Assembly (NCBI GenBank): GCA_046309815.1
Contig: JBKCOJ010000010.1
Coordinates: 6,997 to 70,996 of the forward strand
Source: Pseudomonadota bacterium
GTDB lineage: Bacteria; Pseudomonadota; Alphaproteobacteria; Paracaedibacterales; CAITNM01
Direction: 5' to 3'
Length of the DNA stretch: 64,000 nt
Below are positions 1,650-56,081 of this stretch, one piece after another (position 1 is the first letter of the stretch; every line of letters starts with the position of its first letter). A program made the translations under genes and the position numbers. The notes beneath the pieces were generated by a model, which saw nothing but the letters and a program-made list of their open reading frames with translations, was not told the DNA's origin and did not search any database.

Positions 1650-2063
1650 ATGAAAGTTATACATTTCACTTTAGAATCTATTGGCCAAGCAGCACGAGAG
1701 GTGAGTTTTTTGCTCAAGCCTGGAATGCCATTGCTGCTGTATGGAGAAATGGGCGCTGGAAAGACAACGCTTACAAAGCATATTGTACTGTCACTTGAGT
1801 GCTGTGAAGAAGTTACAAGCCCTACGTTTACGATTATGCAATCTTATGTGACAGTTCTTGGTACATTATGGCACATTGATTTGTACAGGTTGGATGAGCA
1901 TTCGACAGATGAACTTGGACTGGAAGAGCTTAATAAGCAAGACATGATGATTGTTGAATGGCCTGAAAGATTAAGAGCAAAATTTTTTTTAACGTATACA
2001 AAGGCAACATTAAAAGTTCTTGAAAATGGTACTCGAGAATTAGTGTTGGAGGTAGTGAATTGA
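1650..2063 (+). CDS. tsaE: tRNA t6A37 threonylcarbamoyl-adenosine biosynthesis ATPase TsaE
   Basis: P-loop GEMGAGKTTLTK, SPTFTI and HIDLYRL motifs typical of YjeE/TsaE. The ORF track starts at GTG 1575, but internal ATG 1650 (MKVIHF) fits the family length better. Confidence 0.85.
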   Translation: MKVIHFTLESIGQAAREVSFLLKPGMPLLLYGEMGAGKTTLTKHIVLSLECCEEVTSPTFTIMQSYVTVLGTLWHIDLYRLDEHSTDELGLEELNKQDMMIVEWPERLRAKFFLTYTKATLKVLENGTRELVLEVVN

Positions 2064-3040
2064 GCGAACGTAGTCCTGATTTTTTAAACAAGTATGATAA
2101 TTTTGAAAAGCAGTATTTAACAGCGGATTTTTCTCCACGCAAATATTTTAGATGGATAAACGGCGGATCTACTTTTGTGTTAATGGATTGTCCAAACATT
2201 GATTCATTAAAAGCATTTATGCGAATGGATAAGTATTTAATATCTCAAGGTTTAAGTGCGCCTGAGATTATTGAAGCAGATGAAGAGAATGGGTATTTGC
2301 TTTTGGAAGATTTCGGTGATGCGACTTATACAAAAGTTTTGCAAACAAGTCCTCAACGAGAGCAAGAACTTTATACATCGGCGGTTGATGTATTGATACA
2401 TTTGCAAGAGCGCAGTGATACAACAGTATCCTTTGTAAAAGACTATACAGTTGAGTTTGGGCTTACTAAGGTGGAACAATTTTTACTTCATTATTATCCC
2501 AAAGTGATGAACGAAGATGTATCAGAAATAGATAAAAATAGTTATTTGAATTCGTGGAAAAGCGCTTTGGAGTTAGCTTTGCAGACAAAAAAAAGTATTT
2601 TTATGCGCGATTATCACGTGGATAATTTGATGGATTTAAAAGAAAGGGCCAGGCCAAAAAATGTTGGTTTGCTCGACTTTCAAGATGCTGTCTGGGCCCC
2701 TGTAGCAGGAGATTTAGTCTCTTTACTCGAAGATGCGCGCAGGGAGGTTTCAGTAGAGTTAACAAATCACTTATGGAAAAGATTTTTAGATGCGCATCCT
2801 AAAGGCGATCACCAAGAAATTTATGTGGCTGGTCTTATTCTAAGTGCAGTTCGTCATGCGCGTATTTTAGGACTTTTTACAAAAGTTGCGGTTGAGCGTG
2901 GTGATAAAAGATTTTTAAAACAAATTCCTCATTTGTGGAACATGTTGAACCGATGCTGCTTGATTGAGGAATTGAAGCCTGTGCGGCAGTGGTTTGATAT
3001 ACATGTACCGAACGCAAAGCGAGTAATTCCTATATTATGA
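2060..3040 (+). CDS. amgK: aminoglycoside-phosphotransferase-fold kinase, AmgK-like (anomeric MurNAc/GlcNAc kinase)
   Basis: APH-fold catalytic motifs (RDYHVDNLM, LLDFQDA). TTGA overlap with tsaE and ATGA overlap with the downstream nucleotidyltransferase, giving the tsaE-amgK-murU order known in alphaproteobacteria. Confidence 0.7.
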   Translation: MSERSPDFLNKYDNFEKQYLTADFSPRKYFRWINGGSTFVLMDCPNIDSLKAFMRMDKYLISQGLSAPEIIEADEENGYLLLEDFGDATYTKVLQTSPQREQELYTSAVDVLIHLQERSDTTVSFVKDYTVEFGLTKVEQFLLHYYPKVMNEDVSEIDKNSYLNSWKSALELALQTKKSIFMRDYHVDNLMDLKERARPKNVGLLDFQDAVWAPVAGDLVSLLEDARREVSVELTNHLWKRFLDAHPKGDHQEIYVAGLILSAVRHARILGLFTKVAVERGDKRFLKQIPHLWNMLNRCCLIEELKPVRQWFDIHVPNAKRVIPIL

Positions 3041-27098: not shown

Positions 27099-28451
27099 TT
27101 ACATTCCACGCATCATTGCGCCTAAACCTTGGCGCATGAAACCTTTTTGCCCCATCTTGCCCATCCGTTTGAACATTGTTTGCATTTGTTCAAACTGTTT
27201 GAGCAAGCGGTTAACTTCCATGACTTGCACCCCAGCACCTAAAGCAATACGCTTGCGGCGTGATCCATTTAAGATAGTGGGGTTTCGTCGTTCTTTTTTG
27301 GTCATAGACCGAATAACAGCAAGCTGTCGACGAACGAGGCTGTCATCAAGGCCAGCCCCTTCCAGTTTATCTTGTATTTTGCCAATCCCTGGCAAAAAAC
27401 CAAGCATACTCGAGAGGCCGCCCATTTTTTGCATGCCTTCTAGTTGCTTAGCCATATCATTCAAATCAAAATGCCCTTTTTCTAATTTTTTTGCAAGCTT
27501 TTCTTGATCTTCACTTTCAGCAAGCGCTGAAGCGCGCTCAACCAAGGCTACTATATCTCCCATATCAAGGATACGGCTAGCAACACGATGCGGGTCAAAT
27601 ATTTCTAATTGGTCAACGCGTTCACCCATACCCAAAAATTTAATCGGGCAACCGGTAACATGACGCATCGAAAGGGCAGCGCCGCCTCGTCCATCACCAT
27701 CAGCACGGGTGAGAATAATAGACGTAATGCCTATTGCATCGTTGAAATTTTTGGCAATATTCACCGCGTCTTGTCCGGTTAGGCTGTCGGCGACTAAAAA
27801 TGTTTCGATAGGTTTAGAAAGGGCTTTTATCTCTTTTAGTTCAGTCATCAAATCATCGTCAATGTGTAAACGACCAGCTGTATCTAAGATAATAACATCG
27901 GTGTTCTGCTTTTTAGCATCACTAATAGCTCGCTTAGTAATAGCTAAGGGCTTCTCCTTTTCAACAATAGGAAGGCTTGGGATATCCATCTGCCTCGCAA
28001 GATTTTCTAGCTGCAGCTGTGCAGCCGGACGGTAGACGTCTAAAGAAGCAAGAAGAACATTTTTTTTAAATTTTGTTGTGAGAAGTTTTGCAAGCTTTGC
28101 CGACGTAGTGGTTTTTCCTGATCCTTGTAGGCCGGTCATTAAAATGACCATGGGGGAAGGTGCTGCCAAATTGATTGGTTCAGGTTCATTACCAAGCGCA
28201 TGGATTAGCTGCTCGTTAACAATTTTAACAACCATCTGAGCTGGATTAATGCTTTTGATAAACTCTTGGCCGATAGCTTTTTCTTTAGCTTGCTCGATAA
28301 ATTCTTTAACTACAGGAAGGGCGACGTCAGCTTCCAGAAGCGCAATGCGTATTTCGCGCATAGCCTCATTAACATCATCTTCCGATAAAGTGCCACGCCC
28401 CTTTAATCGGTCAAAAATTCCGGATAAGCGCTCAGATAGTGACTTATACAT
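27099..28451 (-). CDS. ffh: signal recognition particle protein Ffh
   Basis: GLQGSGKTTT, DTAGR and TRADGDGRGGAALS GTPase motifs, plus a Met-rich M domain. Confidence 0.97.
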   Translation of the reverse strand: MYKSLSERLSGIFDRLKGRGTLSEDDVNEAMREIRIALLEADVALPVVKEFIEQAKEKAIGQEFIKSINPAQMVVKIVNEQLIHALGNEPEPINLAAPSPMVILMTGLQGSGKTTTSAKLAKLLTTKFKKNVLLASLDVYRPAAQLQLENLARQMDIPSLPIVEKEKPLAITKRAISDAKKQNTDVIILDTAGRLHIDDDLMTELKEIKALSKPIETFLVADSLTGQDAVNIAKNFNDAIGITSIILTRADGDGRGGAALSMRHVTGCPIKFLGMGERVDQLEIFDPHRVASRILDMGDIVALVERASALAESEDQEKLAKKLEKGHFDLNDMAKQLEGMQKMGGLSSMLGFLPGIGKIQDKLEGAGLDDSLVRRQLAVIRSMTKKERRNPTILNGSRRKRIALGAGVQVMEVNRLLKQFEQMQTMFKRMGKMGQKGFMRQGLGAMMRGM

Positions 28452-28633: not shown

Positions 28634-29716
28634 TCAAAAAGGGGAAGGTGGCAAAATAAAATCTGGCATAAAAGAAAAAGAAGAGTAATCAATTTCTTCA
28701 TCACTTGATTCATCGTCTTCTTTTTGGGGACTCTTTCTAGTTTTCTTTGGATTAATGAGTTTTCCATTTGCGTCGAATTCAAGACTGTTTCTTCTGCCTC
28801 TGTTGTTATAATTTCTTTCTTTTAGTTTTTGTATTTTGTCTTCTACTATTGGTCGATTTGGCTTAGAAGCAGGTAAAGATATTATTGTTGTGCTGTTAGA
28901 AGTGGGTGTTTGTTCTATCTCGTTATTTCCAAAAGAACCCATCATAACATTTTGTTGATAAACTTTATCTGTAAGAGCTTCCATTAATGACAATAAAAAA
29001 ACACTGTAAACGGGTTTGCCAGAAAAATTCTTTTTTTGGGAGACACGGGCTTTTATATATTCAGTAAGATTGGGATAAAGAGTATTTATCACATCTTCAA
29101 GTCGAAGTGTTGGGTGTAGATCAAGAGCAAAAGCTATTTCTTGCTGAAGTGATTGATTTAAGGAAACATCTTCTTCTGTTCCGTTTAGTCTGAACCATAT
29201 GCAATAAAATTTTTTGCAAAAAGCTTGTATTATCCATTCTTGGTTTTTTGCACCGTGAGGGTCTGGTGTGAAAGTAGTCTTTGCAAAAATGGCCACAGCA
29301 TCAGTTAAAATGCGACGATCAAAGAAGTGGTAAGGATCAAAAAGAAGAGGTCCAGAATGAGGTTTTTTTAAAGCGTACTTACTTAATATTGCATTTGCTA
29401 ATGAAATTATTTCATTAATGATGGGTGGGGCCGAAAGTTCTGTAACGATTGTATCAATAACTTCCGATGAGGGAAGATCGTACAAAAGCGGTTTTGAATG
29501 ACGCAAGATTAATTCATTAAATTGCGTCGGATTTAGAAAGTCATTTTTTTCCCAAAATGAAGCAGAGAAAAAGGTGAAAAATTCAACTTTAGGTGACCTT
29601 TGAGCAGAAACTATTTGCTGTTGAGGATTTTCATCATCGTCAATATCTAAAGCTGTTGCTGAATGTAAAAAACTGTAAATAACAAAAATGCATAAGACAA
29701 AAAAATTCCTCGACAT
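28634..29716 (-). CDS. hypothetical secreted protein, member A of a tandem paralogue pair
   Basis: Signal peptide MSRNFFVLCIFVIYSFLHSATA. Acidic Ser/Asp/Glu C-terminal tail. Motif-level similarity to 29787-30875. Confidence 0.55.
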   Translation of the reverse strand: MSRNFFVLCIFVIYSFLHSATALDIDDDENPQQQIVSAQRSPKVEFFTFFSASFWEKNDFLNPTQFNELILRHSKPLLYDLPSSEVIDTIVTELSAPPIINEIISLANAILSKYALKKPHSGPLLFDPYHFFDRRILTDAVAIFAKTTFTPDPHGAKNQEWIIQAFCKKFYCIWFRLNGTEEDVSLNQSLQQEIAFALDLHPTLRLEDVINTLYPNLTEYIKARVSQKKNFSGKPVYSVFLLSLMEALTDKVYQQNVMMGSFGNNEIEQTPTSNSTTIISLPASKPNRPIVEDKIQKLKERNYNNRGRRNSLEFDANGKLINPKKTRKSPQKEDDESSDEEIDYSSFSFMPDFILPPSPF

Positions 29717-29786: not shown

Positions 29787-30875
29787 TTAATTATTGCTTG
29801 CTTGCAATTCTTCAAATTCTTCAAAATAGCTGCTAAACCTTGAATTTGAGGGTTGTGAAGAGGAAGCGCTAAGAGCATAGAGAGTTCGTGCAAGAATCCT
29901 GCTGTTACGTTTTGGATTTGGAGCTACTCTAGCAGATGTTAAAGAAGAGTTTTGCAAAGATGCTGGTTTTTTATTGAGTGGAAGGTTCACGGAAGCAGGT
30001 ACTATTACTTGCATTTGAATAGGCTCATATGTTTTAGGTGCAAGCGCATGCATTAAAGAGAGCGTAAAATAGGTGATCATTAAATCCTTTCGCATATCAA
30101 CAAAATTCTCGTTGAGCCACTTTGTTAAAGCGGGGTATGTTTGTTGAAATTCTTCATGGTAACTAGGTCCAAAGCCAACAATTTTTCCTATCTTGAGATG
30201 TAGAGTAATATTGAGTTCACTATTGTTATTAGATTGATATAGATTCTTCCATATTTGAGAGAAAGCAGACATAAAAATTTGTTGCTTCGAATGATTGATT
30301 TTTTCAGGCCTATTTATAATTCCAAAAAACGATCGCAGAGTAGTTCGCAAAATTTCTCGATCATAAAGATAGATAGAATTGAAGGTGATGAAAGTTTGTT
30401 TAGGATAATTTAATGTTGGCAGAAGTTCATTTGCTAGTGCATTAATATTCTTTAGTGCAGCTTTATTGCTTGACTCAAAAAGCTCATCAAATTTTTGCTG
30501 TAGGATTTGATTATTTACTGAAGGAAAGGATGGTCTTCTTTCCATCATTGATTCGTAAGCGTAAGGATCAGCAATAGCCCTTAGCGGTGTGGTGAAGGAT
30601 GAGTTTGAATTAAGAAAAATCCCTAATTTTTTGAGCGTTTCTGGATTGATGAAATATATGTCTGCTCTTCTTCCCATTTCGTAAGTATTTATGAAAATAA
30701 GAAAACCTTGTTGACTTCCCATGGAGTTAGCAAGCTTAGTCATGGTGGTGTGCGTTTTAAGATGCTTGATTTCTTCATCGTCATAATGCGTATCGGTACA
30801 GGATAAAGTTATATTTAGATAAAAAAGCATAAAGAAAAGTAATTGAAACATGCAGAAAACAAAAATTTTAATCAA
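29787..30875 (-). CDS. hypothetical secreted protein, member B of a tandem paralogue pair
   Basis: Hydrophobic N-terminus (TTG 30875 or ATG 30851). Shares blocks with 28634-29716 (LSLMHALAPKTYE vs LSLMEALTDKVYQ; YPALTKWL vs YPNLTEYI). Confidence 0.55.
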   Translation of the reverse strand: MIKIFVFCMFQLLFFMLFYLNITLSCTDTHYDDEEIKHLKTHTTMTKLANSMGSQQGFLIFINTYEMGRRADIYFINPETLKKLGIFLNSNSSFTTPLRAIADPYAYESMMERRPSFPSVNNQILQQKFDELFESSNKAALKNINALANELLPTLNYPKQTFITFNSIYLYDREILRTTLRSFFGIINRPEKINHSKQQIFMSAFSQIWKNLYQSNNNSELNITLHLKIGKIVGFGPSYHEEFQQTYPALTKWLNENFVDMRKDLMITYFTLSLMHALAPKTYEPIQMQVIVPASVNLPLNKKPASLQNSSLTSARVAPNPKRNSRILARTLYALSASSSQPSNSRFSSYFEEFEELQASNN

Positions 30876-30992: not shown

Positions 30993-31289
30993 ATGCTTAA
31001 CGTAGTTGCGGCGATTTTTGTGGTTTTTGGATTGATTGGGTTATTTGCATTGATACTTCGTTATTTTCAGCAGTCCGGACGATTTTCTTTTCCTCTTTTA
31101 AATGCTAAGCAGCAAGGTGTTATCGTAGAACCTCCAATCATTCTTGATAGCAAGCGTCGTATTGTGAATATTACGCACCGCGGGCAGCGGTATGTTTTAA
31201 TGCTTGGTCCTAATAATGATGTATTGTTAGAAACGTCCTCGGCAGCTCGTTCAATTGAAGTAGCGGAGTTTGATAGAAAGAATGTCTAA
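30993..31289 (+). CDS. fliO: flagellar biosynthesis protein FliO
   Basis: 98 aa with a single TM, then the RRIVNITHRGQRYVLMLGPNNDVLL pattern. Directly precedes and overlaps fliP. Confidence 0.7.
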   Translation: MLNVVAAIFVVFGLIGLFALILRYFQQSGRFSFPLLNAKQQGVIVEPPIILDSKRRIVNITHRGQRYVLMLGPNNDVLLETSSAARSIEVAEFDRKNV

Positions 31290-32055
31290 TTTTTTAAAGA
31301 ACTTTCAAGTGAGACGTTTGCATGTTAATAATGCATGCTGTATTGCGGCATTGCTGCTTATTTTTATGCAATCGCCTCTTAGTGCGGATAGCTTTACTCT
31401 TAACTTAGGCGATACAAGCGGTAGTTTGATTGGGCGCATGATTCAACTGAGCGCGTTGATGGCGCTTTTAACTATAGCACCTTCAATTATTATTGTGGTG
31501 ACCTCCTTCACGCGTATTGTTGTTGTGTTTTCTTTTTTGCGAAATGCGCTTGGTACACAGCAATCACCGCCAAATATGATTTTAATAAGCTTAGCCATAT
31601 TTTTAACACTATTTATTATGGGGCCGGTCTTTAATAAGGCATATCAAGAAGGCGTATCGCCTTTAATGGACAACAAAATTTCCTATGAAACGGCCTATGA
31701 AAAAATTTGTGATCCGTTGCATATTTTTATGCGCAAAAATGTGCGTGAAAAGGACCTTGAACTGTTCATGTTTTTAAGTAAGGAAAAGGAAGTTAAATCG
31801 GCAAAAGATGTGCCAATGCGTATTCTTGTGCCAGCATTCGTGATTAGTGAGTTGCGACGTGGCTTTGAAATTGGCTTCTTAATTTATTTACCATTCGTGG
31901 TTATTGATATGGTGATTGCCAGTATTCTCATGAGTATGGGGATGATGATGTTGCCACCGATGTTGATTTCGATGCCGTTTAAGATTGTCTTTTTTGTATT
32001 GATTGACGGCTGGAATATGCTATGCGGCAGCTTGGTTAATAGTTTCAGTATGTGA
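31270..32055 (+). CDS. fliP: flagellar type III export apparatus protein FliP
   Basis: FTRIVVVFSFLRNALGTQQSPPN and the FLIYLPFVVIDMVIASILMSMGMMMLPP signature. Confidence 0.95.
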   Translation: MIERMSNFLKNFQVRRLHVNNACCIAALLLIFMQSPLSADSFTLNLGDTSGSLIGRMIQLSALMALLTIAPSIIIVVTSFTRIVVVFSFLRNALGTQQSPPNMILISLAIFLTLFIMGPVFNKAYQEGVSPLMDNKISYETAYEKICDPLHIFMRKNVREKDLELFMFLSKEKEVKSAKDVPMRILVPAFVISELRRGFEIGFLIYLPFVVIDMVIASILMSMGMMMLPPMLISMPFKIVFFVLIDGWNMLCGSLVNSFSM

Positions 32056-32200
32056 TTTTTTGTAACATTTTGGGGAATATTTTTTCATCTCTTGATTGGT
32101 ATCAATATCGATAAATTCTAGCTTTATTGATTCAAAAAAATGCTTGATGTTGATTTTATGTTAATATTTGTATAGAGATATTATTGAAAAGGGGTTAGCA

Positions 32201-32521
32201 ATGAAAATATTTAAAATAACTTTAATTGTAATGATTACACTTAGTGTTGTTTTTGCTTCTGAAAATGACGAAATTGCAGAACAATTTGCTGAGGGGATGA
32301 AGCAAGCTGTGGTTACAAGATTTCACGATCGAAATCCTCCTACAAATGATCCAGAAGCAGACCAAAAAAAGTTTCGCGAAGAATTAGCACTGTTGATGCT
32401 TGCACTGAACGTACTGAAGATTGGTGAGATAAATGGTCATAATTTATGGGATAGTATTCCTCCTGCCGAGTTGACAAACTCGGTGCTTACTATGATGGAT
32501 ACATTGCGTAATAAAAGATGA
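32201..32521 (+). CDS. small hypothetical secreted protein (106 aa)
   Basis: AAAAGGGG SD before ATG 32201. Signal peptide MKIFKITLIVMITLSVVFA. No family recognised. Confidence 0.45.
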   Translation: MKIFKITLIVMITLSVVFASENDEIAEQFAEGMKQAVVTRFHDRNPPTNDPEADQKKFREELALLMLALNVLKIGEINGHNLWDSIPPAELTNSVLTMMDTLRNKR

Positions 32522-32567
32522 GATTTTCGAACAATAACAAGTAATCTAAAAATAATCGCTAAATTTT

Positions 32568-32607
32568 GTCTTAAGGTAATGTTTTTCCTTAAGACATTTA
32601 GTTTTTT
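32568..32607. terminator. hairpin between convergent genes (likely bidirectional terminator)
   Basis: Perfect 9-bp inverted repeat GTCTTAAGG-N10-CCTTAAGAC, followed by a T-rich run on the + strand. Confidence 0.6.
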
Positions 32608-32628
32608 ACCTCCCTGCGTCCATTCAAA

Positions 32629-32921: not shown

Positions 32922-33050
32922 TTACCAGCAACAGCAGCCGCTTAGCAACAGCAATACTGCCCCTAATCCAATTCTTATTATTCCATAGCTCTTTGAAGCG
33001 GGGGTTACATACTCCATAGCATGTTTTCTCTCAGAATGATGAATCACCAT
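32922..33050 (-). CDS. unannotated 42-aa ORF (MVIHHSERKHAMEYVTPASKSYGIIRIGLGAVLLLLSGCCCW)
   Basis: Not in the supplied track (shorter than 60 aa). GGAGG lies 6 nt before the ATG. One hydrophobic helix, ending in GCCCW. Sits between the lyase-like gene and chaB on the same strand. Confidence 0.3.
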   Translation of the reverse strand: MVIHHSERKHAMEYVTPASKSYGIIRIGLGAVLLLLSGCCCW

Positions 33051-33164: not shown

Positions 33165-33884
33165 TTATATCGACGCTTCCCATAGAATAAGCCCCGACCA
33201 CATCATTACCAATTCCGGGAATGGAGATGATTCATCAAGCCAATTATGAGCAAATTCTGGTAAAGGAGAGATACGAGTGTCTTTTGTGAAATGGCTGTCG
33301 CTGCAATCGATAGCATCTATTTCTTTTAAAAAACTATGCGGTTTTATAATGGTGCATAAATCTCCTTTATACGCGCCATAACGCGTGAAGAGTGCTCCTG
33401 TATGTCCAAGTTGTGCATCAGTTTGTATATTCACAAAATCGGTTTGTGGATTTAGAATTTTACGTTCAATAGATGCGTTTAATACACGATCAAATTCAGT
33501 AGCAATCTCATTCGCATGTTCTAAGGAGGTCGGATATATGGTTATAAATTTTCCTGATTGTTGAGGCTGAAAGCTTAAATGTCTTAGTCCAGCATACGTG
33601 GTGTATTTAAAATGAGCATTATGAGATTCTAAAACAGGTAATGCTAAATCAAAGATTGTATCCATGCTTTCCAAAGTTGCCGAAAGATGCAATTTCCAGC
33701 CTTGAAATATGGGTGTAGAACCTACAAGTACAAATGTTTTTTTGCCATTTTTAGGAAAATTGGCAGCTCGTGCATCAGCGTAACTATCATAAATAATGTC
33801 GATATTTTCAGCAGCGCCTGATACATAAGGACTTTTTATAAAAATGAAAAATACGACAATAATAAGTACTATTTTTTGAATCAC
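33165..33884 (-). CDS. secreted protein with OspF/SpvC-type phosphothreonine-lyase-like motifs
   Basis: GTG start with AGAGGGA upstream. Signal peptide. QGWKLHLSA ... HFKYTT ... SGKFITIYP reproduces the K-x-H / K / Y order and spacing of the OspF/SpvC/LanKC lyase fold. This is a motif-level match from memory only. Confidence 0.45.
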   Translation of the reverse strand: MIQKIVLIIVVFFIFIKSPYVSGAAENIDIIYDSYADARAANFPKNGKKTFVLVGSTPIFQGWKLHLSATLESMDTIFDLALPVLESHNAHFKYTTYAGLRHLSFQPQQSGKFITIYPTSLEHANEIATEFDRVLNASIERKILNPQTDFVNIQTDAQLGHTGALFTRYGAYKGDLCTIIKPHSFLKEIDAIDCSDSHFTKDTRISPLPEFAHNWLDESSPFPELVMMWSGLILWEASI

Positions 33885-33980
33885 CTTTTCCCTCTTTTTT
33901 ATTTTTCTTCATCATACGGGAGTATTTCTATACAACTCGTTAATTAAAGAAAAATTACAGATTAAAGAGGTTAAGGATTG

Positions 33981-34974: not shown

Positions 34975-35793
34975 ATGATCTCTTTTCCTTCTATTGATCC
35001 GGTGGCGCTAGCCTTCGGGCCTTTGAAAATTCATTGGTATGGCATTGCTTATGTGGCAGGTATTATTTTAGCCTGTCATTGGGCACATGGATTAATACGT
35101 CGTTTTCAATTTTCTATTTCTCATAAATTATTTGATGATCTTCTGCCTTATATCGTTATCGGCATCGTTGTGGGCGGACGTCTTGGCCACACCATGTTGT
35201 ATGAGCCTGCTTATTATTTGAGTGATCCTTTAGAGATTTTTAAAGTATGGAAAGGCGGCATGTCTTTTCACGGTGGGTTAATTGGTGTGGTGCTGATGGC
35301 ATTAATTTACACAAAAAAACACCGATTAGATTTTTATGAGTTGGGTGACCTCATGGCGCTGATTTCTCCTATCGGGTTATTTTTTGGACGTTTAGCTAAC
35401 TTTGTGAATGCGGAATTGTGCGGCATAGAGACATCGATGCCATGGGGTGTAATATTTCCCCATCAAGTTATTGCGCACCATCCAACGCAAATTTACGAGG
35501 CGCTACTAGAAGGCTTAGCGTTGTTTTTAATTCTCAATGGCATGTATAGAAATTCATCCAAATTACGATCTTTTAAAGGTCTGACAGGGTGTTTATTTTT
35601 ATTTTTATATGCACTCTTTCGCTTATGTGTTGAAGCGTTTAAAGTACAAGAAGTGGTCATGCAACTTGGCACATGCAAACTAGGAGTTGGTGTTATACTA
35701 TGTACGCTCATGCTTTCGCTAAGCATTCTGTTGATAATGGTGCGCCTTCGTGCATTCAAGACTATATCCGCAAAAACGGCCCCGTTACGGTAG
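34975..35793 (+). CDS. lgt: prolipoprotein diacylglyceryl transferase
   Basis: IHWYGIAYVAGI, GGRLGH, GGMSFHGGLIG and FGRLANFVNAEL motifs. Confidence 0.95.
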   Translation: MISFPSIDPVALAFGPLKIHWYGIAYVAGIILACHWAHGLIRRFQFSISHKLFDDLLPYIVIGIVVGGRLGHTMLYEPAYYLSDPLEIFKVWKGGMSFHGGLIGVVLMALIYTKKHRLDFYELGDLMALISPIGLFFGRLANFVNAELCGIETSMPWGVIFPHQVIAHHPTQIYEALLEGLALFLILNGMYRNSSKLRSFKGLTGCLFLFLYALFRLCVEAFKVQEVVMQLGTCKLGVGVILCTLMLSLSILLIMVRLRAFKTISAKTAPLR

Positions 35794-43933: not shown

Positions 43934-45811
43934 CTAATGTCTATTATTACTCATCGCCGTCATCATGCTATCTAGTTGTCTTGAAAAATCGGCATAACGT
44001 GATTTCATGGCATCATAACGAGCGGCTTGGGCTATCCATTTTTTTTCTTCTCTGTCCGCTTTTTTTTCAATTTCTTTTACTCTTTTTTCTAGTTTTTCAT
44101 TCTTTTTTGTAATTGTTTTAACGGCGGTTTCGAAATCACCACTGGGAGTTAATTCTCCTGTTTTCTTATCTCTGGTCTCCTTTTGGAGACTTTGAGCGCA
44201 TGATCTTGCCGCAGTTAGTGCCAGCCCTTGTGTTGCGGTCATTGAAAAAGTAACTGGACTTTCTTCTGGAACAGGTGCGCCTTTATAGTCAATCGTAATT
44301 TTCTCAAAAATGCTACCTTTTGGTCCAACTAGACGAGAAATTGTTGTTTGTTCTATGTCGCCAGAGTCATGTCCTGCGCATTGAAATCGTGCATAAGATT
44401 TCCCATCCTTAGTACTAAGGGTGATTTTAATGGGTTTCCCTGCAATTGATGGATCAAGATTCGTTCCAAGATCTGCAACATGAAAATTTGTATTTGTCGT
44501 TGTTGCGTAATTTCCAAATAATTTTCTAACTTTTTCAAAATTATTGGTGATTGCTGATAAGATTTTTTGTTTGTCGGTTATGGTAAAAGTGCCTGTCTGA
44601 AAACCTGTGGCTGCGGCATCTCTTACGATGCCTATATCTTTACAAGATTTGTAATCACCGTCTTTAGCGCCTAATTTGCTCTCATTGTTACCGCCCACAA
44701 ACATGAAATTGGCAATGGCTGATAACTGTTTATCAAGAGCTCTAATCAGGGGAATACGAAACATCAATGCTTCTGGATCCAGAGGATTATGATCTTCGTC
44801 TTCCATGAGATTTCTATTTAAAATTTCGCGAATTTCGTTAAAGTGCACGAAAAAGGCCACAATTTTTTCACAAGCTTCGCCTGTATTATTGCTAATGTTA
44901 ATATTAATATCATCGTATGTGCCACTACTATTTTTACTAGGATTCAGAAGTTTAATAGTTACGCCGGGCATTAAATCTTCAACAATGTTTGTATCAAATG
45001 TGTACTCTTTAGTTACTACGCCATGTGCGCCATCAACAATATCGCATTCTACCTTAGCTTTTAATTTGCCTATGTCTGTGGGATCTGTGCTAATGCCAAA
45101 GTATGTACTTAAAATTGCAGCATCGTCCACAAAAGTTATAGGTTTTGCAAGTTCACTTCCATTTAATATGAGATAAAACTGATTGCCATTTTGTTTAAAA
45201 CTAGCTTGTATATCTGAATTCGAGTTATTAATGGCCGAAGTAATAGAGTAAAGACTGTCCGATGGAGCAATTGTAATAAGCTCACCACCATTTATTTGAA
45301 AGCTTCCGGAAAGGCCTAAAGCTTCAGTGCTAGAGGTAATAGCAATATCATCTAATTTTTTAACAGTGTTAGTGGTGATGCGGGAATCTACCGATGCTAT
45401 TTGTAGGACTCGTATCGATATTCCGTTGTTTGTTGCCTGTGCAGCGCTTTGATCAATGGTGACATCCACATACGAGGTTGCTGGTTTTCCAAAGCGTGTG
45501 ACAGAAGCTTGGAGGTTTCTAAAACTATTTTCAATGCCTGTGGCATCATCGAGGCGATTACTTAAAGCAATAGCATCAGCTTGTAATGCTTGGACTTTTG
45601 CTTGCAAAGCACTAATAGCTGGGAGAACTTTTGATTTATTTTTATCGATGATCTCGGTTTGTTTTTGTGCAGACGCAAGCGTGGCTTCTTTGATTTTTGT
45701 ACCAGTATCCTGCATATCGAGGCCGCCAGTATTCAATCCAATGCGGGTAGGTTTTTTACCGCTTGGATCGACATGTGCTCTTCCCATAGTGACTTCACCG
45801 GGCCCTGGCAT
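43934..45811 (-). CDS. fliD: flagellar filament capping protein FliD
   Basis: The N-terminal IGLNTGGLDMQD...ISALQAKVQALQ and C-terminal coiled coil (RYDAMKSRYADFSRQLDSM) match the FliD N and C domains. GAGGTGG SD before ATG 45811. Confidence 0.8.
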   Translation of the reverse strand: MPGPGEVTMGRAHVDPSGKKPTRIGLNTGGLDMQDTGTKIKEATLASAQKQTEIIDKNKSKVLPAISALQAKVQALQADAIALSNRLDDATGIENSFRNLQASVTRFGKPATSYVDVTIDQSAAQATNNGISIRVLQIASVDSRITTNTVKKLDDIAITSSTEALGLSGSFQINGGELITIAPSDSLYSITSAINNSNSDIQASFKQNGNQFYLILNGSELAKPITFVDDAAILSTYFGISTDPTDIGKLKAKVECDIVDGAHGVVTKEYTFDTNIVEDLMPGVTIKLLNPSKNSSGTYDDININISNNTGEACEKIVAFFVHFNEIREILNRNLMEDEDHNPLDPEALMFRIPLIRALDKQLSAIANFMFVGGNNESKLGAKDGDYKSCKDIGIVRDAAATGFQTGTFTITDKQKILSAITNNFEKVRKLFGNYATTTNTNFHVADLGTNLDPSIAGKPIKITLSTKDGKSYARFQCAGHDSGDIEQTTISRLVGPKGSIFEKITIDYKGAPVPEESPVTFSMTATQGLALTAARSCAQSLQKETRDKKTGELTPSGDFETAVKTITKKNEKLEKRVKEIEKKADREEKKWIAQAARYDAMKSRYADFSRQLDSMMTAMSNNRH

Positions 45812-48122: not shown

Positions 48123-49094
48123 TTATCGCTGATCTAGCTTAAATTCAATGCGACGGTTACGATCAAGATTCGCTACATCCGTATTTAAAGGCTGAAATTC
48201 ACCAAAACCGGCAGCAACCAAATGTTTCCCATCAATGCCTTTTTTAATCATGTATTGCACAACAGCAATGGCACGAGCTGAAGATAGTTCCCAATTTGAA
48301 GGAAATTGCGTGCTTTTGATTGGGCGTTTATCGGTGTGTCCATCAACACGAAGAATCCAATTAATATCAGCAGGAATTTTGTTGCCGATTTCTTTAAGAG
48401 CCTTTATAAGTTCATCCAGCTGCTTTTTCCCTTCTTCGCCAAGTTCAGCTGAGGCCACATCAAAAAGTACTTCTGATTGAAACACAAATCGATCATCAAC
48501 AACGCGTACATCGCTTCTATCTCCCAGTATTTTCTTCAATTGCGCAAAAAATTCTGACCGGAATTGTCCAACTTTGATGGAGTTTTGATGTTTTGCTTGC
48601 TCTGTTTCTAAAGATTGTAAGGCTAGTTGAAGCTTTTTTAGTTCATCTTCTTTTTTTGACGAATCTACTTGTGCTTGATTTAGTAGATCTTGCAATTGCT
48701 TTAAGCGTTCTTCTAGTTTTTCCAGATCAGTTTTTATGCGTTCATTGGTGGTACGTTGTTCAGCATGTTGGCTTTTTTCAAGGCTTAGAGCTTGGGTAAG
48801 TGTTTCTAGTTGCGTGTTAAGATTCTTGATGAGCTCTTCCAGGCTTGTGATTTTTTCTAAGCTTATCAAATGCTCTTTTTTTGCGTCTTCTAAGTCTTTT
48901 TCTAAAGCACGTAGTTGGATATATAAGCTTGAAACTTCGGAATCTTTGGTATTAATTGTTTCAACTAAAAAAACTTGAGAGATGAAAAATGCCATCAATA
49001 CAAAAATAATGGCCATAAGAACGGTAGATAACGCATCTACAAATACAGGCCACACGTTTAGGCTGGCTGGTCTATGCGGCCTGATAAAAAACAT
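48123..49094 (-). CDS. MotB-like / OmpA-family peptidoglycan-binding protein with a long coiled coil
   Basis: N-terminal MotB-like TM (VWPVFVDALSTVLMAIIFVLM), a ~150-aa coiled coil, and a C-terminal OmpA_C motif (NWELSSARAIAVVQYM, NRRIEF). Confidence 0.7.
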   Translation of the reverse strand: MFFIRPHRPASLNVWPVFVDALSTVLMAIIFVLMAFFISQVFLVETINTKDSEVSSLYIQLRALEKDLEDAKKEHLISLEKITSLEELIKNLNTQLETLTQALSLEKSQHAEQRTTNERIKTDLEKLEERLKQLQDLLNQAQVDSSKKEDELKKLQLALQSLETEQAKHQNSIKVGQFRSEFFAQLKKILGDRSDVRVVDDRFVFQSEVLFDVASAELGEEGKKQLDELIKALKEIGNKIPADINWILRVDGHTDKRPIKSTQFPSNWELSSARAIAVVQYMIKKGIDGKHLVAAGFGEFQPLNTDVANLDRNRRIEFKLDQR

Positions 49095-55022: not shown

Positions 55023-56081
55023 GTGAGATTTTTACCTGCCTTTTTATGCACTGTTCTATGTTTACTGCACTTTAAGTTAGTTGCGTTAGAAACTTTAGAT
55101 TTGGAAGCAGCATCCAGCAGAGCTACCGCTTCGGCTAGCTCGGTAATTTCACGGGCTTTATGGAATAAATTTGAAAATTTTTTAGATGATCCTGATTTTT
55201 CTGACAGATTTGTGGATGCGAGTTTAAATGATAAGTTTCCAGAACTTCCACTGGTTGTTCTAAGACTTGATACTCAGGAGTTACTAAAAGTTTCTTGCCA
55301 TTTAAAGAAATTGCATTTGCTAACGCCATTGCTAAAAGAAGCATATGAAAATCTCTTTTTTATGCTTGAATTTTCGATTGATGGGCTAAATGCTAGAGAT
55401 ACAAGCTGTCTTTGGAGCTGTATTGCTAATTGTTGCTACAAAATACCGGATACCTTCTTTGAAAAGTTAGATTATTACACGGCAAAAGAAACTCTTTTTT
55501 TTGAAAGTTCATTGATTTTATCAACTTTGCAAAACCTTTGTACTTTAAAGGAGGGAAGGGCTTTTCATCGTTTTGCACAGCTTTTTTCAGAGATAGAGGA
55601 ATTGGTAAATCCTAATGATCTTCACAATTACGTCTTTCTTAGTACCTATTTAAGTCATGTTAAAGATAGATCAATTACTTTTTCGCGAGAAATGCGTCGT
55701 ACCTTGAAAAGTTATAAAAGCAATTTAAACGTAAAAGAAAGTTCTACACAGCGACAAGTTTTAAAATTCTTGCAGCGCTTTGATAGTGAATTCCAGAGGG
55801 AAATCTTTAATAAGGATTTAGATACGTATTTGGATATTGTTCACGAAGAATCCAAAATAGCAGTTGAAGTTGATGGCAAGCATCATTATAAGGAAAACGC
55901 TTCGGAGACAACATATTTTAAAAGGCCGTTGGATTTAATGCGAGATGATGCATTGAAGAAACTTGGGTGGAAAGTTTATCGAATACGTATTGATGAGTGG
56001 GATCATTTTAAAAGAGGTTTTTCTTCAAAAATGCATGAACGAAGCACTTTTGATACGTTCCTCGCATTGTATCTCGTTTAA
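55023..56081 (+). CDS. signal-peptide protein with a helical N-terminal region and a C-terminal RAP/DUF559 (Vsr-like PD-(D/E)XK) domain
   Basis: GTG start with a hydrophobic N-terminus. The C-terminus STQRQVLKFLQRF...YLDIVHEESKIAVEVDGKHHY...DLMRDDALKKLGWKVYRIRIDEW follows the RAP / DUF559 pattern. Confidence 0.5.
   Translation: MRFLPAFLCTVLCLLHFKLVALETLDLEAASSRATASASSVISRALWNKFENFLDDPDFSDRFVDASLNDKFPELPLVVLRLDTQELLKVSCHLKKLHLLTPLLKEAYENLFFMLEFSIDGLNARDTSCLWSCIANCCYKIPDTFFEKLDYYTAKETLFFESSLILSTLQNLCTLKEGRAFHRFAQLFSEIEELVNPNDLHNYVFLSTYLSHVKDRSITFSREMRRTLKSYKSNLNVKESSTQRQVLKFLQRFDSEFQREIFNKDLDTYLDIVHEESKIAVEVDGKHHYKENASETTYFKRPLDLMRDDALKKLGWKVYRIRIDEWDHFKRGFSSKMHERSTFDTFLALYLV

What the first reader, a model, noticed from the sequence alone, without database searches (positions are those of the whole stretch)
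33165..33884. Secreted protein with OspF/SpvC-type phosphothreonine-lyase motif architecture
Seen in the sequence: after a Sec-type signal peptide the protein reads QGWKLHLSA, then HFKYTT 29 residues later, then SGKFITIYP about 24 residues further on. Established knowledge (recalled, not searched): OspF/SpvC/HopAI1 effectors and the lyase domains of class III/IV lanthipeptide synthetases use a K-x-H dyad (GDKFHIS), a downstream catalytic Lys (DKWK) and a Tyr in GAQFTLY, with very similar spacing. Inference: this is a possible beta-eliminating (eliminylase) enzyme in an apparently intracellular alphaproteobacterium, which would be an unusual host-signalling or cell-envelope activity. The signal peptide argues against a classical T3SS effector.
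Basis: partly seen in the sequence, partly recalled or inferred. Interest (0 to 1): 0.65.

Follow-up and report, generated by a model that had tools for sequence, protein, structure and literature searches.

The report
Exported stand-alone phospho-Ser/Thr lyase homologue
A protist-endosymbiont-like bacterium encodes a small exported protein with the fold and full catalytic residue set of enzymes that irreversibly strip phosphate from proteins, an uncharacterised form of a known virulence and antibiotic-synthesis enzyme.

Summary
The ORF at 33165-33884 lies on the minus strand (239 aa, GTG start with a Shine-Dalgarno sequence) and carries the three motifs at the stated spacing.

The interpretation also holds at profile and fold level:
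- Pfam RamC_N, the lyase domain of class III/IV lanthipeptide synthetases, matches at E=2.8e-18.
- Foldseek hits with an AlphaFold2 model are LanKC lyase domains first, then VirA/SpvC/OspF (probability 0.99-1.0).
- A profile-profile alignment to SpvC/OspF pairs K64/H66/K93/Y117/R168 with SpvC K104/H106/K136/Y158/R213.

The protein is neither a lanthipeptide synthetase nor an OspF-family member. The 64-kb window has no kinase or cyclase, and PF03536 does not match.

It has a Sec-type signal peptide that is conserved in orthologues. The mature protein has exactly two cysteines, present in eight orthologues and both absent in a ninth.

Orthologues lie at one syntenic position (lgt side to fliP) in MAGs labelled Candidatus Finniella and Odyssella. 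They diverge far faster (50-57% identity) than their neighbours (76-94%).

Its nearest relatives are hundreds of unannotated proteins. About half appear to carry signal peptides, and few are LanKC-like.

Best reading: an exported beta-eliminating phospho-Ser/Thr lyase, probably host-directed. Activity, substrate and the route across the outer membrane are untested.

The parts
33165..33884 (-). Complete CDS: 239 aa plus a TAA stop. A stand-alone RamC_N / phospho-Ser/Thr-lyase-fold protein.
   Evidence: ORF list and translation; Pfam PF25816 at E=2.8e-18; AF2 model and Foldseek
33891..33896 (-). Shine-Dalgarno-like AGAGGG about 6 nt upstream of the GTG start
   Evidence: Sequence read. There is no other in-frame start between the upstream stop codon and the GTG.
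33816..33884 (-). Predicted Sec (SPase I) signal peptide, residues 1-23: M-IQK / IVLIIVVFFIFI / KSPYVSG, cleaved before AAEN
   Evidence: Read directly from the sequence. AF2 pLDDT is below 50 for residues 1-26. Equivalent N-termini with A-x-A-type sites occur in P0002, P0005, P0006, P0007, P0009, P0010 and P0011, and in P0003 if it starts at an upstream GTG/TTG. SignalP was not available.
33168..33815 (-). Mature protein, residues 24-239 (about 24.3 kDa, pI 5.4), forming the lyase domain
   Evidence: pLDDT is 90 or more over most of residues 31-170; Foldseek hits to LanKC and SpvC/OspF; protein properties
33678..33704 (-). QGWKLHLSA motif. K64 corresponds to ThurKC K65 and SpvC K104 (phosphate binding). 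H66 corresponds to SpvC H106 (general acid).
   Evidence: phmmer alignment to ThurKC; ThurKC paper PMC10604976; hhalign to SpvC; K in 180 of 183 and H in 179 of 183 aligned homologues
33597..33614 (-). HFKYTT motif. K93 corresponds to SpvC K136, the catalytic base that abstracts the alpha proton.
   Evidence: hhalign pairs FKYT with WKVT. Invariant in A1-A4; K in 173 of 185 homologues.
33531..33557 (-). SGKFITIYP motif. K112 corresponds to ThurKC K117, the functional counterpart of SpvC R148. Y117 corresponds to SpvC Y158.
   Evidence: K112 in 184 of 187 and Y117 in 181 of 187 homologues.
33375..33386 (-). TRYG motif. R168 corresponds to ThurKC R163 and SpvC R213 (phosphate binding).
   Evidence: R in 157 of 157 aligned homologues.
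33303..33356 (-). C177...C194 loop, holding the only two cysteines of the mature protein; a putative disulfide
   Evidence: Both Cys are present in eight orthologues and both are absent in P0009. The cysteine count is 2. The loop is modelled at low confidence (pLDDT below 50 for 175-183 and 187-193). The disulfide is inferred, not shown.
33252..33281 (-). DTRISPLPEF motif. D202-x-R204 probably corresponds to ThurKC D189-x-R191 and SpvC R220. It is followed by the clade-typical P-[WL]-P-[DE]-F.
   Evidence: D202, R204 and P209 are invariant in A1 and A2. D-x-R-x-x-P-W-P-D-F recurs in distant signal-peptide relatives. Equivalence to R220 is inferred from position, not from a superposition.

Best explanation
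The gene encodes a stand-alone phospho-Ser/Thr lyase (eliminylase) domain that is exported by the Sec pathway.

Proposed mechanism, by analogy with SpvC/OspF and LanKC/LanL lyase domains: K64, K112, R168 and R204 hold the phosphate of a pSer/pThr residue in a peptide or protein. K93 abstracts the alpha proton, Y117 and K64 stabilise the enolate, and H66 protonates the leaving phosphate. The product is dehydroalanine or dehydrobutyrine, so the loss of the phosphorylation site is irreversible.

There is no ATP and there are no protein kinases in the periplasm. The neighbouring genes that identify the orthologues are shared with MAGs labelled as genera whose described members live in the cytoplasm of protists. 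The most likely substrates are therefore host phosphoproteins, reached after release from the periplasm by a route not yet identified (outer-membrane vesicles, lysis, or an unidentified outer-membrane step).

Shown here: family and fold membership, conservation of the catalytic residues, conservation of a Sec-type N-terminus, absence of kinase or cyclase partners, syntenic vertical inheritance, and fast divergence. Inferred: actual cleavage and export, the disulfide, catalysis, substrate identity and host targeting.
For: Family and fold:
- Pfam RamC_N E=2.8e-18.
- LanL/LanKC N-terminal matches only.
- ThurKC at 1.3e-5.
- AF2 pLDDT 80 and pTM 0.78.
- Foldseek hits to LanKC lyase domains at 5e-8, and to VirA/SpvC/OspF at probability 0.99-1.0.
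- hhalign to the SpvC/OspF profile at E=6e-4, aligning K64/K104, H66/H106, K93/K136, Y117/Y158 and R168/R213.

Residues:
- ThurKC mutagenesis shows that K65, K117, R163 and R191 matter for dehydration (PMC10604976). Their counterparts K64, K112, R168 and R204 are invariant here.

Export:
- The Sec-type N-terminus is conserved across orthologues and distant relatives.
- The h-region is only 12 residues, too short for a membrane anchor.
- The two cysteines are present together or absent together.

Context:
- Orthologues sit at one syntenic position in MAGs labelled Ca. Finniella and Ca. Odyssella.
- No kinase or LanC occurs anywhere in the window.
- The lyase is 50-57% identical between genomes whose Ffh, FliP and Lgt are 92-94%, 83-88% and 76-80% identical. 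That is the pattern of a fast-evolving interaction protein with a fixed active site.

Precedents from the literature:
- Paracaedibacteraceae-type symbionts encode Sec plus many lineage-specific signal-peptide proteins (PMC8163844).
- Sec/T2SS substrates of Legionella reach the host cytosol (PMC5478897).
Against: - No activity, localisation or substrate data exist.
- A Sec signal delivers the protein only to the periplasm, and no outer-membrane export route was identified. Only 64 kb of the genome was visible, and the literature stresses T6SS rather than T2SS for this group.
- No MAPK-docking D-motif or other targeting feature is evident after the signal peptide.
- The signal-peptide call rests on manual rules and a crude hydropathy heuristic, not on SignalP.
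- Foldseek TM-scores are modest (0.34-0.47, normalised to the full 239 residues).
- The R204 = SpvC R220 equivalence is positional only.
- Some signal-peptide relatives occur in a Firmicutes-like context, so the wider clade is not restricted to intracellular bacteria.
- dN/dS against the 98.5%-identical strain is 0.48 on only 11 differences, which is uninformative.
Confidence: 0.55

Rival explanations
1. A periplasmic or envelope enzyme that acts on a bacterial substrate rather than on host proteins. It might modify an envelope or flagellum-associated protein or peptide, or another phosphorylated or O-substituted Ser/Thr-containing molecule, within the symbiont's own periplasm. It could be soluble or tethered by an uncleaved signal.
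For: A Sec signal by itself targets only the periplasm. The gene always lies next to fliP, convergently, in a neighbourhood that includes lgt, an envelope biogenesis gene. Signal-peptide relatives also occur in a Firmicutes-like genome, so a general extracytoplasmic role is possible.
Against: No periplasmic pSer/pThr substrates or kinases are known, since the periplasm has no ATP (established knowledge). The gene is tail-to-tail with fliP, so they are not co-transcribed. In the window two other genes separate them, and P0009 lies elsewhere in its genome. Fast divergence is atypical for a housekeeping envelope enzyme.
Confidence: 0.2
2. A trans-acting lyase of a split RiPP (lanthipeptide-like) pathway, working with a separately encoded kinase and precursor peptide. 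Stand-alone kinase/lyase lanthipeptide clusters and class V LanK/LanY systems are the models.
For: RamC_N is best known from LanKC/LanL. Clusters with stand-alone kinase and lyase have been reported (PMC4159009). An APH-family phosphotransferase lies at window 2060-3040.
Against: Full-length LanKC/LanL-like proteins hit only this ORF, through their lyase domains; there is no kinase-like or LanC-like ORF in the 64 kb. None of the syntenic loci has a kinase, cyclase or short precursor nearby. The signal peptide would separate the enzyme from ATP-dependent phosphorylation. The APH gene is 30 kb away, between a 162-aa ORF that I did not scan and take from memory of this gene order to be tsaE, and an ORF that I presume to be a nucleotidyltransferase. 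That is an AmgK/MurU-type housekeeping arrangement (plus gene order).
Confidence: 0.05
3. A non-catalytic phosphopeptide-binding or structural protein (pseudoenzyme) that kept the fold but not the chemistry.
For: Activity is untested. The fold is shared with non-lyase proteins such as eIF4E and BLES03 (PMC4159009). The loop at residues 175-193 is modelled poorly.
Against: All seven positions that define the active site in SpvC/LanL/ThurKC are occupied by the expected residues. They are invariant despite about 50% overall divergence. eIF4E, by contrast, lacks K136 and H106.
Confidence: 0.07

Closest known systems
Lyase domain of class III/IV lanthipeptide synthetases (LanKC/LanL; Pfam PF25816 RamC_N; structures ThurKC 8SAM/8SAO/8SAP, CuvL 8CAV, SalKC 9UGQ, PneKC 8W7J)
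   Same: This is the best sequence and structure match. The motifs are the same: QGWK-x-H, FK, GKFITIYP, RYG and D-x-R. A Lys in GKF (ThurKC K117) takes the role of SpvC R148.
   Different: The window protein is 239 aa and stand-alone. It has no kinase or LanC domain, no precursor peptide and no biosynthetic cluster. It has an N-terminal Sec signal peptide and a Cys pair. It has a clade-specific C-terminal P-[WL]-P-[DE]-F...PFP...W tail. It occurs in a Gram-negative endosymbiont-like alphaproteobacterium rather than in Firmicutes or Actinobacteria.
OspF/SpvC/VirA/HopAI1/EseN type III effector phosphothreonine lyases (Pfam PF03536; PDB 2P1W, 2Q8Y, 2Z8P, 3I0U, 3BO6)
   Same: Same fold (Foldseek probability 0.99-1.0). 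The catalytic K/H/K/Y/R residues align, with very similar spacing. Both are small proteins of about 24 kDa encoded by host-associated bacteria.
   Different: PF03536 gives no hit even at E up to 10. Sequence identity is 13-16%. It has a Sec signal peptide instead of a T3SS signal and N-terminal MAPK-docking motif. No injectisome context is seen. SpvC R148 is replaced functionally by K112, from a different position.
HopA1-like lyases (PF17914), including LanY of class V lanthipeptides and TvaD of thioamitides
   Same: They are stand-alone lyases of the same superfold. There are weak Foldseek hits to HopA1 (4RSW, E=0.12) and to LxmKY (9DK1, E=0.45).
   Different: There is no Pfam hit. Those enzymes work with an adjacent APH-like kinase in the cytoplasm; none is adjacent here.
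Unannotated signal-peptide RamC_N proteins from metagenomes (for example P0027, P0010, P0032/P0046, P0036, P0029)
   Same: These are the nearest relatives outside the orthologue group. They share the signal-peptide-like N-terminus, all catalytic residues and the D-x-R-x-x-P-W-P-D-F tail. No other Pfam domain was found in nine of the ten scanned; the tenth, P0050, also has FHA and EDR1-like domains.
   Different: Most carry an extra region of 100-500 aa of unknown function between the signal peptide and the lyase domain. Several genomes have two paralogues. Some neighbour effector-like genes such as SidE_PDE, Lipase_3, PTP-like phytase and Sel1. None is characterised, so they provide no function by transfer.

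Membership tests
RamC_N / phospho-Ser/Thr lyase domain superfamily (PF25816) | Profile match above the curated threshold | tested here: met
   66.5 bits against a gathering score of 27, E=2.8e-18, residues 60-178
RamC_N / phospho-Ser/Thr lyase domain superfamily (PF25816) | Alpha/beta lyase fold shared with LanKC lyase domains and SpvC/OspF | tested here: met
   AF2 model at pLDDT 80. Foldseek hits to LanKC at 5e-8 and to SpvC/VirA/OspF at 2e-3 to 9e-3, probability 0.99-1.0.
RamC_N / phospho-Ser/Thr lyase domain superfamily (PF25816) | Active-site set: Lys and His (K-x-H), catalytic Lys, Tyr, and three phosphate-binding basic residues | tested here: met
   K64, H66, K93, K112, Y117, R168 and R204 are present and conserved. 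The R204 equivalence is positional only.
RamC_N / phospho-Ser/Thr lyase domain superfamily (PF25816) | Beta-elimination of phosphate from pSer/pThr peptides | not testable with these tools
   Needs a biochemical assay
Class III/IV lanthipeptide synthetase (LanKC/LanL) | Three-domain lyase-kinase-cyclase polypeptide | tested here: not met
   The protein is only 239 aa. NCBIfam scores are 68.5 and 60.5 bits against cutoffs of 650 and 575, and only about 110 N-terminal model positions match.
Class III/IV lanthipeptide synthetase (LanKC/LanL) | Biosynthetic cluster with a precursor peptide (or a split kinase/cyclase nearby) | tested here: not met
   phmmer with 11 LanKC/LanL-size proteins (10 with the LanKC/LanL layout) hits only this ORF in all six frames of the window. 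The neighbours are pcm, lgt, ChaB and fliP. The same holds in related loci.
OspF/SpvC T3SS effector phosphothreonine lyases (PF03536) | Sequence-family membership | tested here: not met
   No PF03536 hit at E up to 10. hhalign against the single SpvC sequence gives E=0.32. Only profile against profile reaches 6e-4.
OspF/SpvC T3SS effector phosphothreonine lyases (PF03536) | Delivery by an injectisome T3SS, with an N-terminal MAPK-docking (D) motif | tested here: not met
   The N-terminus is a Sec-type signal peptide. No basic/hydrophobic D-motif follows it. Only flagellar genes (fliP, fliD) were seen in the window. Whether the rest of the genome has an injectisome is unknown.
OspF/SpvC T3SS effector phosphothreonine lyases (PF03536) | Specific elimination at pThr of the MAPK pT-x-pY activation loop | not testable with these tools
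   Needs an assay on MAPK phosphopeptides
HopA1/LanY-type stand-alone lyases (PF17914) paired with APH-like kinases | PF17914 match and an adjacent APH-family kinase | tested here: not met
   No PF17914 hit. The only APH protein in the window is 30 kb away, in a housekeeping arrangement read as AmgK/MurU from gene order; only the APH protein itself was scanned.
Sec-exported protein (SPase I substrate) | n-h-c signal peptide with small residues at -3/-1, conserved in orthologues | tested here: inconclusive
   Manual rules and a hydropathy heuristic are satisfied, and the feature is conserved. pLDDT is below 50 for residues 1-26. No dedicated predictor or experiment was available.

The most novel reading that the evidence does not exclude
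This protein would be the minimal member of a large, unrecognised clade of Sec-exported eliminylases. These enzymes would act outside the bacterial cytoplasm, in the host cytosol for cytoplasm-dwelling symbionts or in the extracellular milieu for others. They would irreversibly erase Ser/Thr phosphorylation on host or environmental phosphoproteins. That would extend 'eliminylation' from a handful of T3SS effectors to a widespread, T3SS-independent strategy. In Paracaedibacteraceae-like symbionts it would be a conserved, fast-evolving, host-signalling effector.
Probability: 0.3. Interest if true: 0.75.

Novelty: new variant of a known kind. Interest (0 to 1): 0.55.

Why it matters
Recent literature describes phosphothreonine lyases as a small family of T3SS-delivered virulence factors (PMC13151050). 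The homologous RamC_N domain is known only as part of cytoplasmic lanthipeptide synthetases.

A stand-alone version with a signal peptide, conserved in endosymbiont-like genomes, would add a new delivery mode and possibly new targets. It sits within a clade where about half of the 150 best-scoring representative clusters also appear to be exported. If the enzyme is active, that extends an irreversible post-translational modification to new settings.

It would also be a compact reagent of about 24 kDa for installing dehydro-amino acids. It could serve as a handle on how Holosporales-type symbionts manipulate protist hosts, about which almost nothing is known experimentally.

If the enzyme instead acts in the periplasm, the existence of extracytoplasmic phospho-Ser/Thr substrates would itself be new.

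Tried and rejected
- **Plus-strand reading of the interval.** Rejected because the frame is full of stops. The 59-aa plus-strand ORF at 33385-33564 lies inside the gene and is taken to be spurious.
- **Lanthipeptide synthetase fragment or pseudogene.** Rejected. The ORF is intact and its length is conserved in nine orthologues. No kinase or cyclase remnants occur in the window.
- **APH-family kinase at 2060-3040 as a LanK-like partner.** Rejected on distance (30 kb) and on its apparent tsaE / AmgK / MurU-type housekeeping context. The flanking ORFs were identified from gene order only.
- **Anti-phage defence component.** No PADLOC hit.
- **Recent horizontal acquisition.** Not supported. Gene GC is 0.361 against 0.378 for the window, and the gene is syntenic in all related genomes.
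- **Lipoprotein or Tat substrate.** There is no lipobox Cys and no RR motif in the N-terminus (read from the sequence).
- **Operon structure.** The promoter/terminator scan was no better than shuffles. Whether the gene is co-transcribed with pcm remains unresolved.
- **Taxonomy of the wider signal-peptide clade.** This failed. The second word-indexed homologue search with a clade profile returned mostly short, unnamed or LanKC-fragment hits, cluster look-ups gave no names, and the plasmid tblastn found only LanKC/LanL in Firmicutes and Actinobacteria.
- **dN/dS against the near-identical strain.** Too few differences to interpret.
- **Literature searches.** No paper links phosphothreonine lyases with Holosporales, with signal peptides or with type II secretion.
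Full report
**1. Observation**

The interval 33165-33884 holds a single long ORF on the minus strand; the plus strand is closed in that frame. The ORF encodes 239 aa. It starts at the first in-frame start codon after the upstream stop, GTG at 33884. AGAGGG lies about 6 nt upstream.

- QGWKLHLSA: residues 61-69
- HFKYTT: residues 91-96
- SGKFITIYP: residues 110-118

The spacings are K64 to K93 = 29 and K93 to Y117 = 24.

I fetched SpvC from the Salmonella plasmid pSLT. The recalled SpvC motifs GDKFHIS, DKWK and GAQFTLY are correct, with spacings of 32 and 22.

The N-terminus, M-IQK / IVLIIVVFFIFI / KSPYVSG|AAEN, has the n-h-c layout of a Sec signal peptide. Its hydrophobic core is 12 residues, too short for a membrane anchor. 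It has no lipobox and no twin arginine.

**2. What it is**

Sequence profiles and structure agree.
- Pfam gives one family, RamC_N (PF25816), at E=2.8e-18 and 66.5 bits against a cutoff of 27. No other family appears even at E up to 10.
- NCBIfam matches only the first ~110 model positions of the LanL and LanKC equivalogs, far below their whole-protein cutoffs.
- phmmer against PDB sequences finds the class III synthetase ThurKC at 1.3e-5.
- An AlphaFold2 model built on 27 homologues has mean pLDDT 80 and pTM 0.78. The core is at 90 or above. Confidence is low only for residues 1-26 and for the loop at 175-193.
- Foldseek against the PDB ranks LanKC/LanL structures first: ThurKC, SalKC, CuvL and PneKC at 5e-8 to 1e-4. 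VirA, SpvC and OspF follow at 2e-3 to 9e-3 with probability 0.99-1.0. HopA1 and the class V LxmKY complex are weak hits.
- A single-sequence hhalign to SpvC aligns only the K-x-H motif (E=0.32).
- The family profile against a three-member SpvC/OspF/Microbulbifer profile gives E=6e-4 over residues 56-168.

**3. Active site**

The ThurKC structure paper (PMC10604976) gives residue correspondences and mutagenesis. Combined with the alignments, they map as follows.

| Window protein | ThurKC | SpvC | Role |
|---|---|---|---|
| K64 | K65 | K104 | phosphate binding |
| H66 | – | H106 | general acid |
| K93 | – | K136 | catalytic base |
| K112 | K117 | R148 (functional counterpart) | phosphate binding |
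| Y117 | – | Y158 | – |
| R168 | R163 | R213 | phosphate binding |
| D202-x-R204 | D189-x-R191 | R220 | positional inference only |

All of these residues are invariant in the orthologue alignment.

Conservation across the 195 aligned domains from the representative search is as follows.

| Residue | Conserved / aligned |
|---|---|
| K64 | 180/183 |
| H66 | 179/183 |
| K93 | 173/185 |
| K112 | 184/187 |
| Y117 | 181/187 |
| R168 | 157/157 |
| R204 | 70/75 |

**4. What it is not**

It is not a lanthipeptide synthetase. It has no kinase or LanC domain. When 11 LanKC/LanL-size proteins (10 with the LanKC/LanL layout) are searched against all six-frame ORFs of the 64-kb window, they hit only this ORF, through their lyase domains.

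The neighbours are:
- pcm (upstream, same strand), a 42-aa ORF and ChaB (downstream)
- lgt, a Methyltransf_28 protein and a Cu-oxidase_4 protein on one side
- fliO/fliP on the other side

It is not an OspF-family member by sequence, and it has a Sec-type rather than a T3SS-type N-terminus. There is no PADLOC hit.

**5. Relatives and context**

The word-indexed search found only 26 homologues. Nine of them are short orthologues (161-294 aa, 41-97% identity).

A scan of one genome per species found four loci (51-54% identity). They are in MAGs labelled Candidatus Finniella sp., Candidatus Odyssella sp. and Alphaproteobacteria bacterium. The described members of those genera are Paracaedibacteraceae that live in the cytoplasm of amoebae, cercozoans and ciliates (PMC11909080).

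In all these genomes the gene sits between the lgt / Methyltransf_28 / Cu-oxidase_4 block and fliP, and is convergent with fliP. P0009 lies elsewhere in its genome. A JGI contig is 98.5-99% identical to the window.

Identity between these genomes differs sharply by gene.

| Protein | Identity |
|---|---|
| Ffh | 92-94% |
| FliP | 83-88% |
| Lgt | 76-80% |
| Lyase | 50-57% |

The gene is therefore ancestral to this group and vertically inherited, but it evolves several-fold faster than its neighbours while keeping its active site. That pattern is typical of secreted interaction proteins.

**6. Export**

Signal-peptide-like N-termini with A-x-A-type cleavage sites occur in P0002, P0005, P0006, P0007, P0009, P0010 and P0011. 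P0003 has one too if it starts at an upstream GTG/TTG. The Finniella-type orthologue starts at TTG with a classic ...CIAHA|AD site.

The mature protein has exactly two cysteines, C177 and C194. Both are present in eight orthologues and both are absent in P0009. This fits a disulfide formed in the periplasm, but that is an inference.

**7. A wider clade**

A full HMMER scan of 1.84 billion representatives with the orthologue profile gave 1903 hits at E up to 1e-3.

Among the sequences gathered, only 10 have the LanKC/LanL layout. By a crude hydropathy rule, 89 of 186 have a signal-peptide-like N-terminus. In 86 of them the lyase domain is C-terminal to a region with no Pfam match.

These proteins share a D-x-R-x-x-P-W-P-D-F...PF...W tail with the window protein. 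In a rough NJ tree the orthologues nest in a group of 79 sequences, of which 51 look signal-bearing.

The contexts seen were:
- two paralogues beside SidE_PDE and Lipase_3 genes (L011)
- a gene next to a PTP-like phytase in a Gram-negative genome (L012)
- two RamC_N proteins plus a Sel1 protein in a Firmicutes-like gene order (L013)

I could not obtain taxonomy for these proteins. The signal-peptide counts are heuristic.

**8. Mechanism and rivals**

The best-supported reading is an exported beta-eliminating phospho-Ser/Thr lyase. Because the periplasm lacks ATP and kinases, and the relatives are cytoplasmic symbionts, host phosphoproteins are the most plausible substrates.

The step across the outer membrane is unexplained. 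For a related symbiont the literature reports Sec, T6SS and many lineage-specific signal-peptide proteins (PMC8163844). Sec/T2SS substrates of Legionella do reach the host cytosol (PMC5478897).

The rivals are:
- a periplasmic or envelope role on a bacterial substrate
- a split RiPP pathway
- a pseudoenzyme

Each is weighed in the Rival explanations section.

**9. Comparison and novelty**

The protein works like LanKC/LanL lyase domains and OspF/SpvC. It is a member of the RamC_N superfamily. It fails the defining tests for LanKC/LanL (architecture, cluster) and for the OspF family (sequence family, T3SS delivery).

Literature searches found no description of Sec-exported or Holosporales phosphothreonine lyases. 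I rate it a new variant of a known kind, of moderate interest. The domain itself is recognised automatically by Pfam, but the exported stand-alone form and the large uncharacterised clade around it are not described.

Noticed in passing
window 33165-33884 compared with ffh 27099-28451, fliP 31270-32055 and lgt 34975-35793; loci L001, L003-L007, L009: The lyase is only 50-57% identical between genomes whose Ffh, FliP and Lgt are 92-94%, 83-88% and 76-80% identical. It evolves several-fold faster than its syntenic neighbours.
   Followed up: partly
window 32922-33050 (-): An unannotated 42-aa ORF with a strong RBS (AAGGAGG) lies just downstream of the lyase gene. It ends in a hydrophobic tail with three cysteines...GLGAVLLLLSGCCCW. 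It may be a small membrane protein.
   Followed up: no
window 28634-29716 (-) and 29787-30875 (-): Two ORFs of about 360 aa lie between ffh and fliO/fliP. They have no Pfam or PADLOC hit, yet are conserved at the same position in all related loci.
   Followed up: no
window 55023-56081 (+): A 352-aa protein matches the RAP domain and the MTES_1575 restriction-endonuclease-like domain (E about 1e-7). From memory, the RAP domain is mostly eukaryotic, which would be notable in a symbiont-like genome.
   Followed up: no
window 32059-32610 compared with L014 11273-11709: This is the only stretch where the window and the 98.5-99% identical JGI contig fail to align. It covers the 117-aa ORF at 32168-32521, which is replaced by an 86-aa ORF in L014. 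It is a small variable spot between fliP and ChaB.
   Followed up: no
P0050 (2266 aa, metagenomic representative): A giant protein with two RamC_N lyase domains, an EDR1/CTR1-type peptidase-like domain and an FHA (phosphothreonine-binding) domain.
   Followed up: no
L011 10001-14717; L013 10001-17448; L012 8924-10963: Distant signal-peptide RamC_N proteins occur as paired paralogues and next to effector-like genes: SidE_PDE and Lipase_3 in L011, Sel1 in L013, and a PTP-like phytase in L012. L013 has a Firmicutes-like gene order.
   Followed up: partly
window 2060-3040 (+), 43934-45811 (-), 48123-49094 (-): An APH-family phosphotransferase sits in what looks, from gene order, like a tsaE/AmgK/MurU-type arrangement. 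Flagellar genes (FliD, an OmpA/MotB-like gene, and fliO/fliP at 30993-32055) are scattered rather than clustered.
   Followed up: partly
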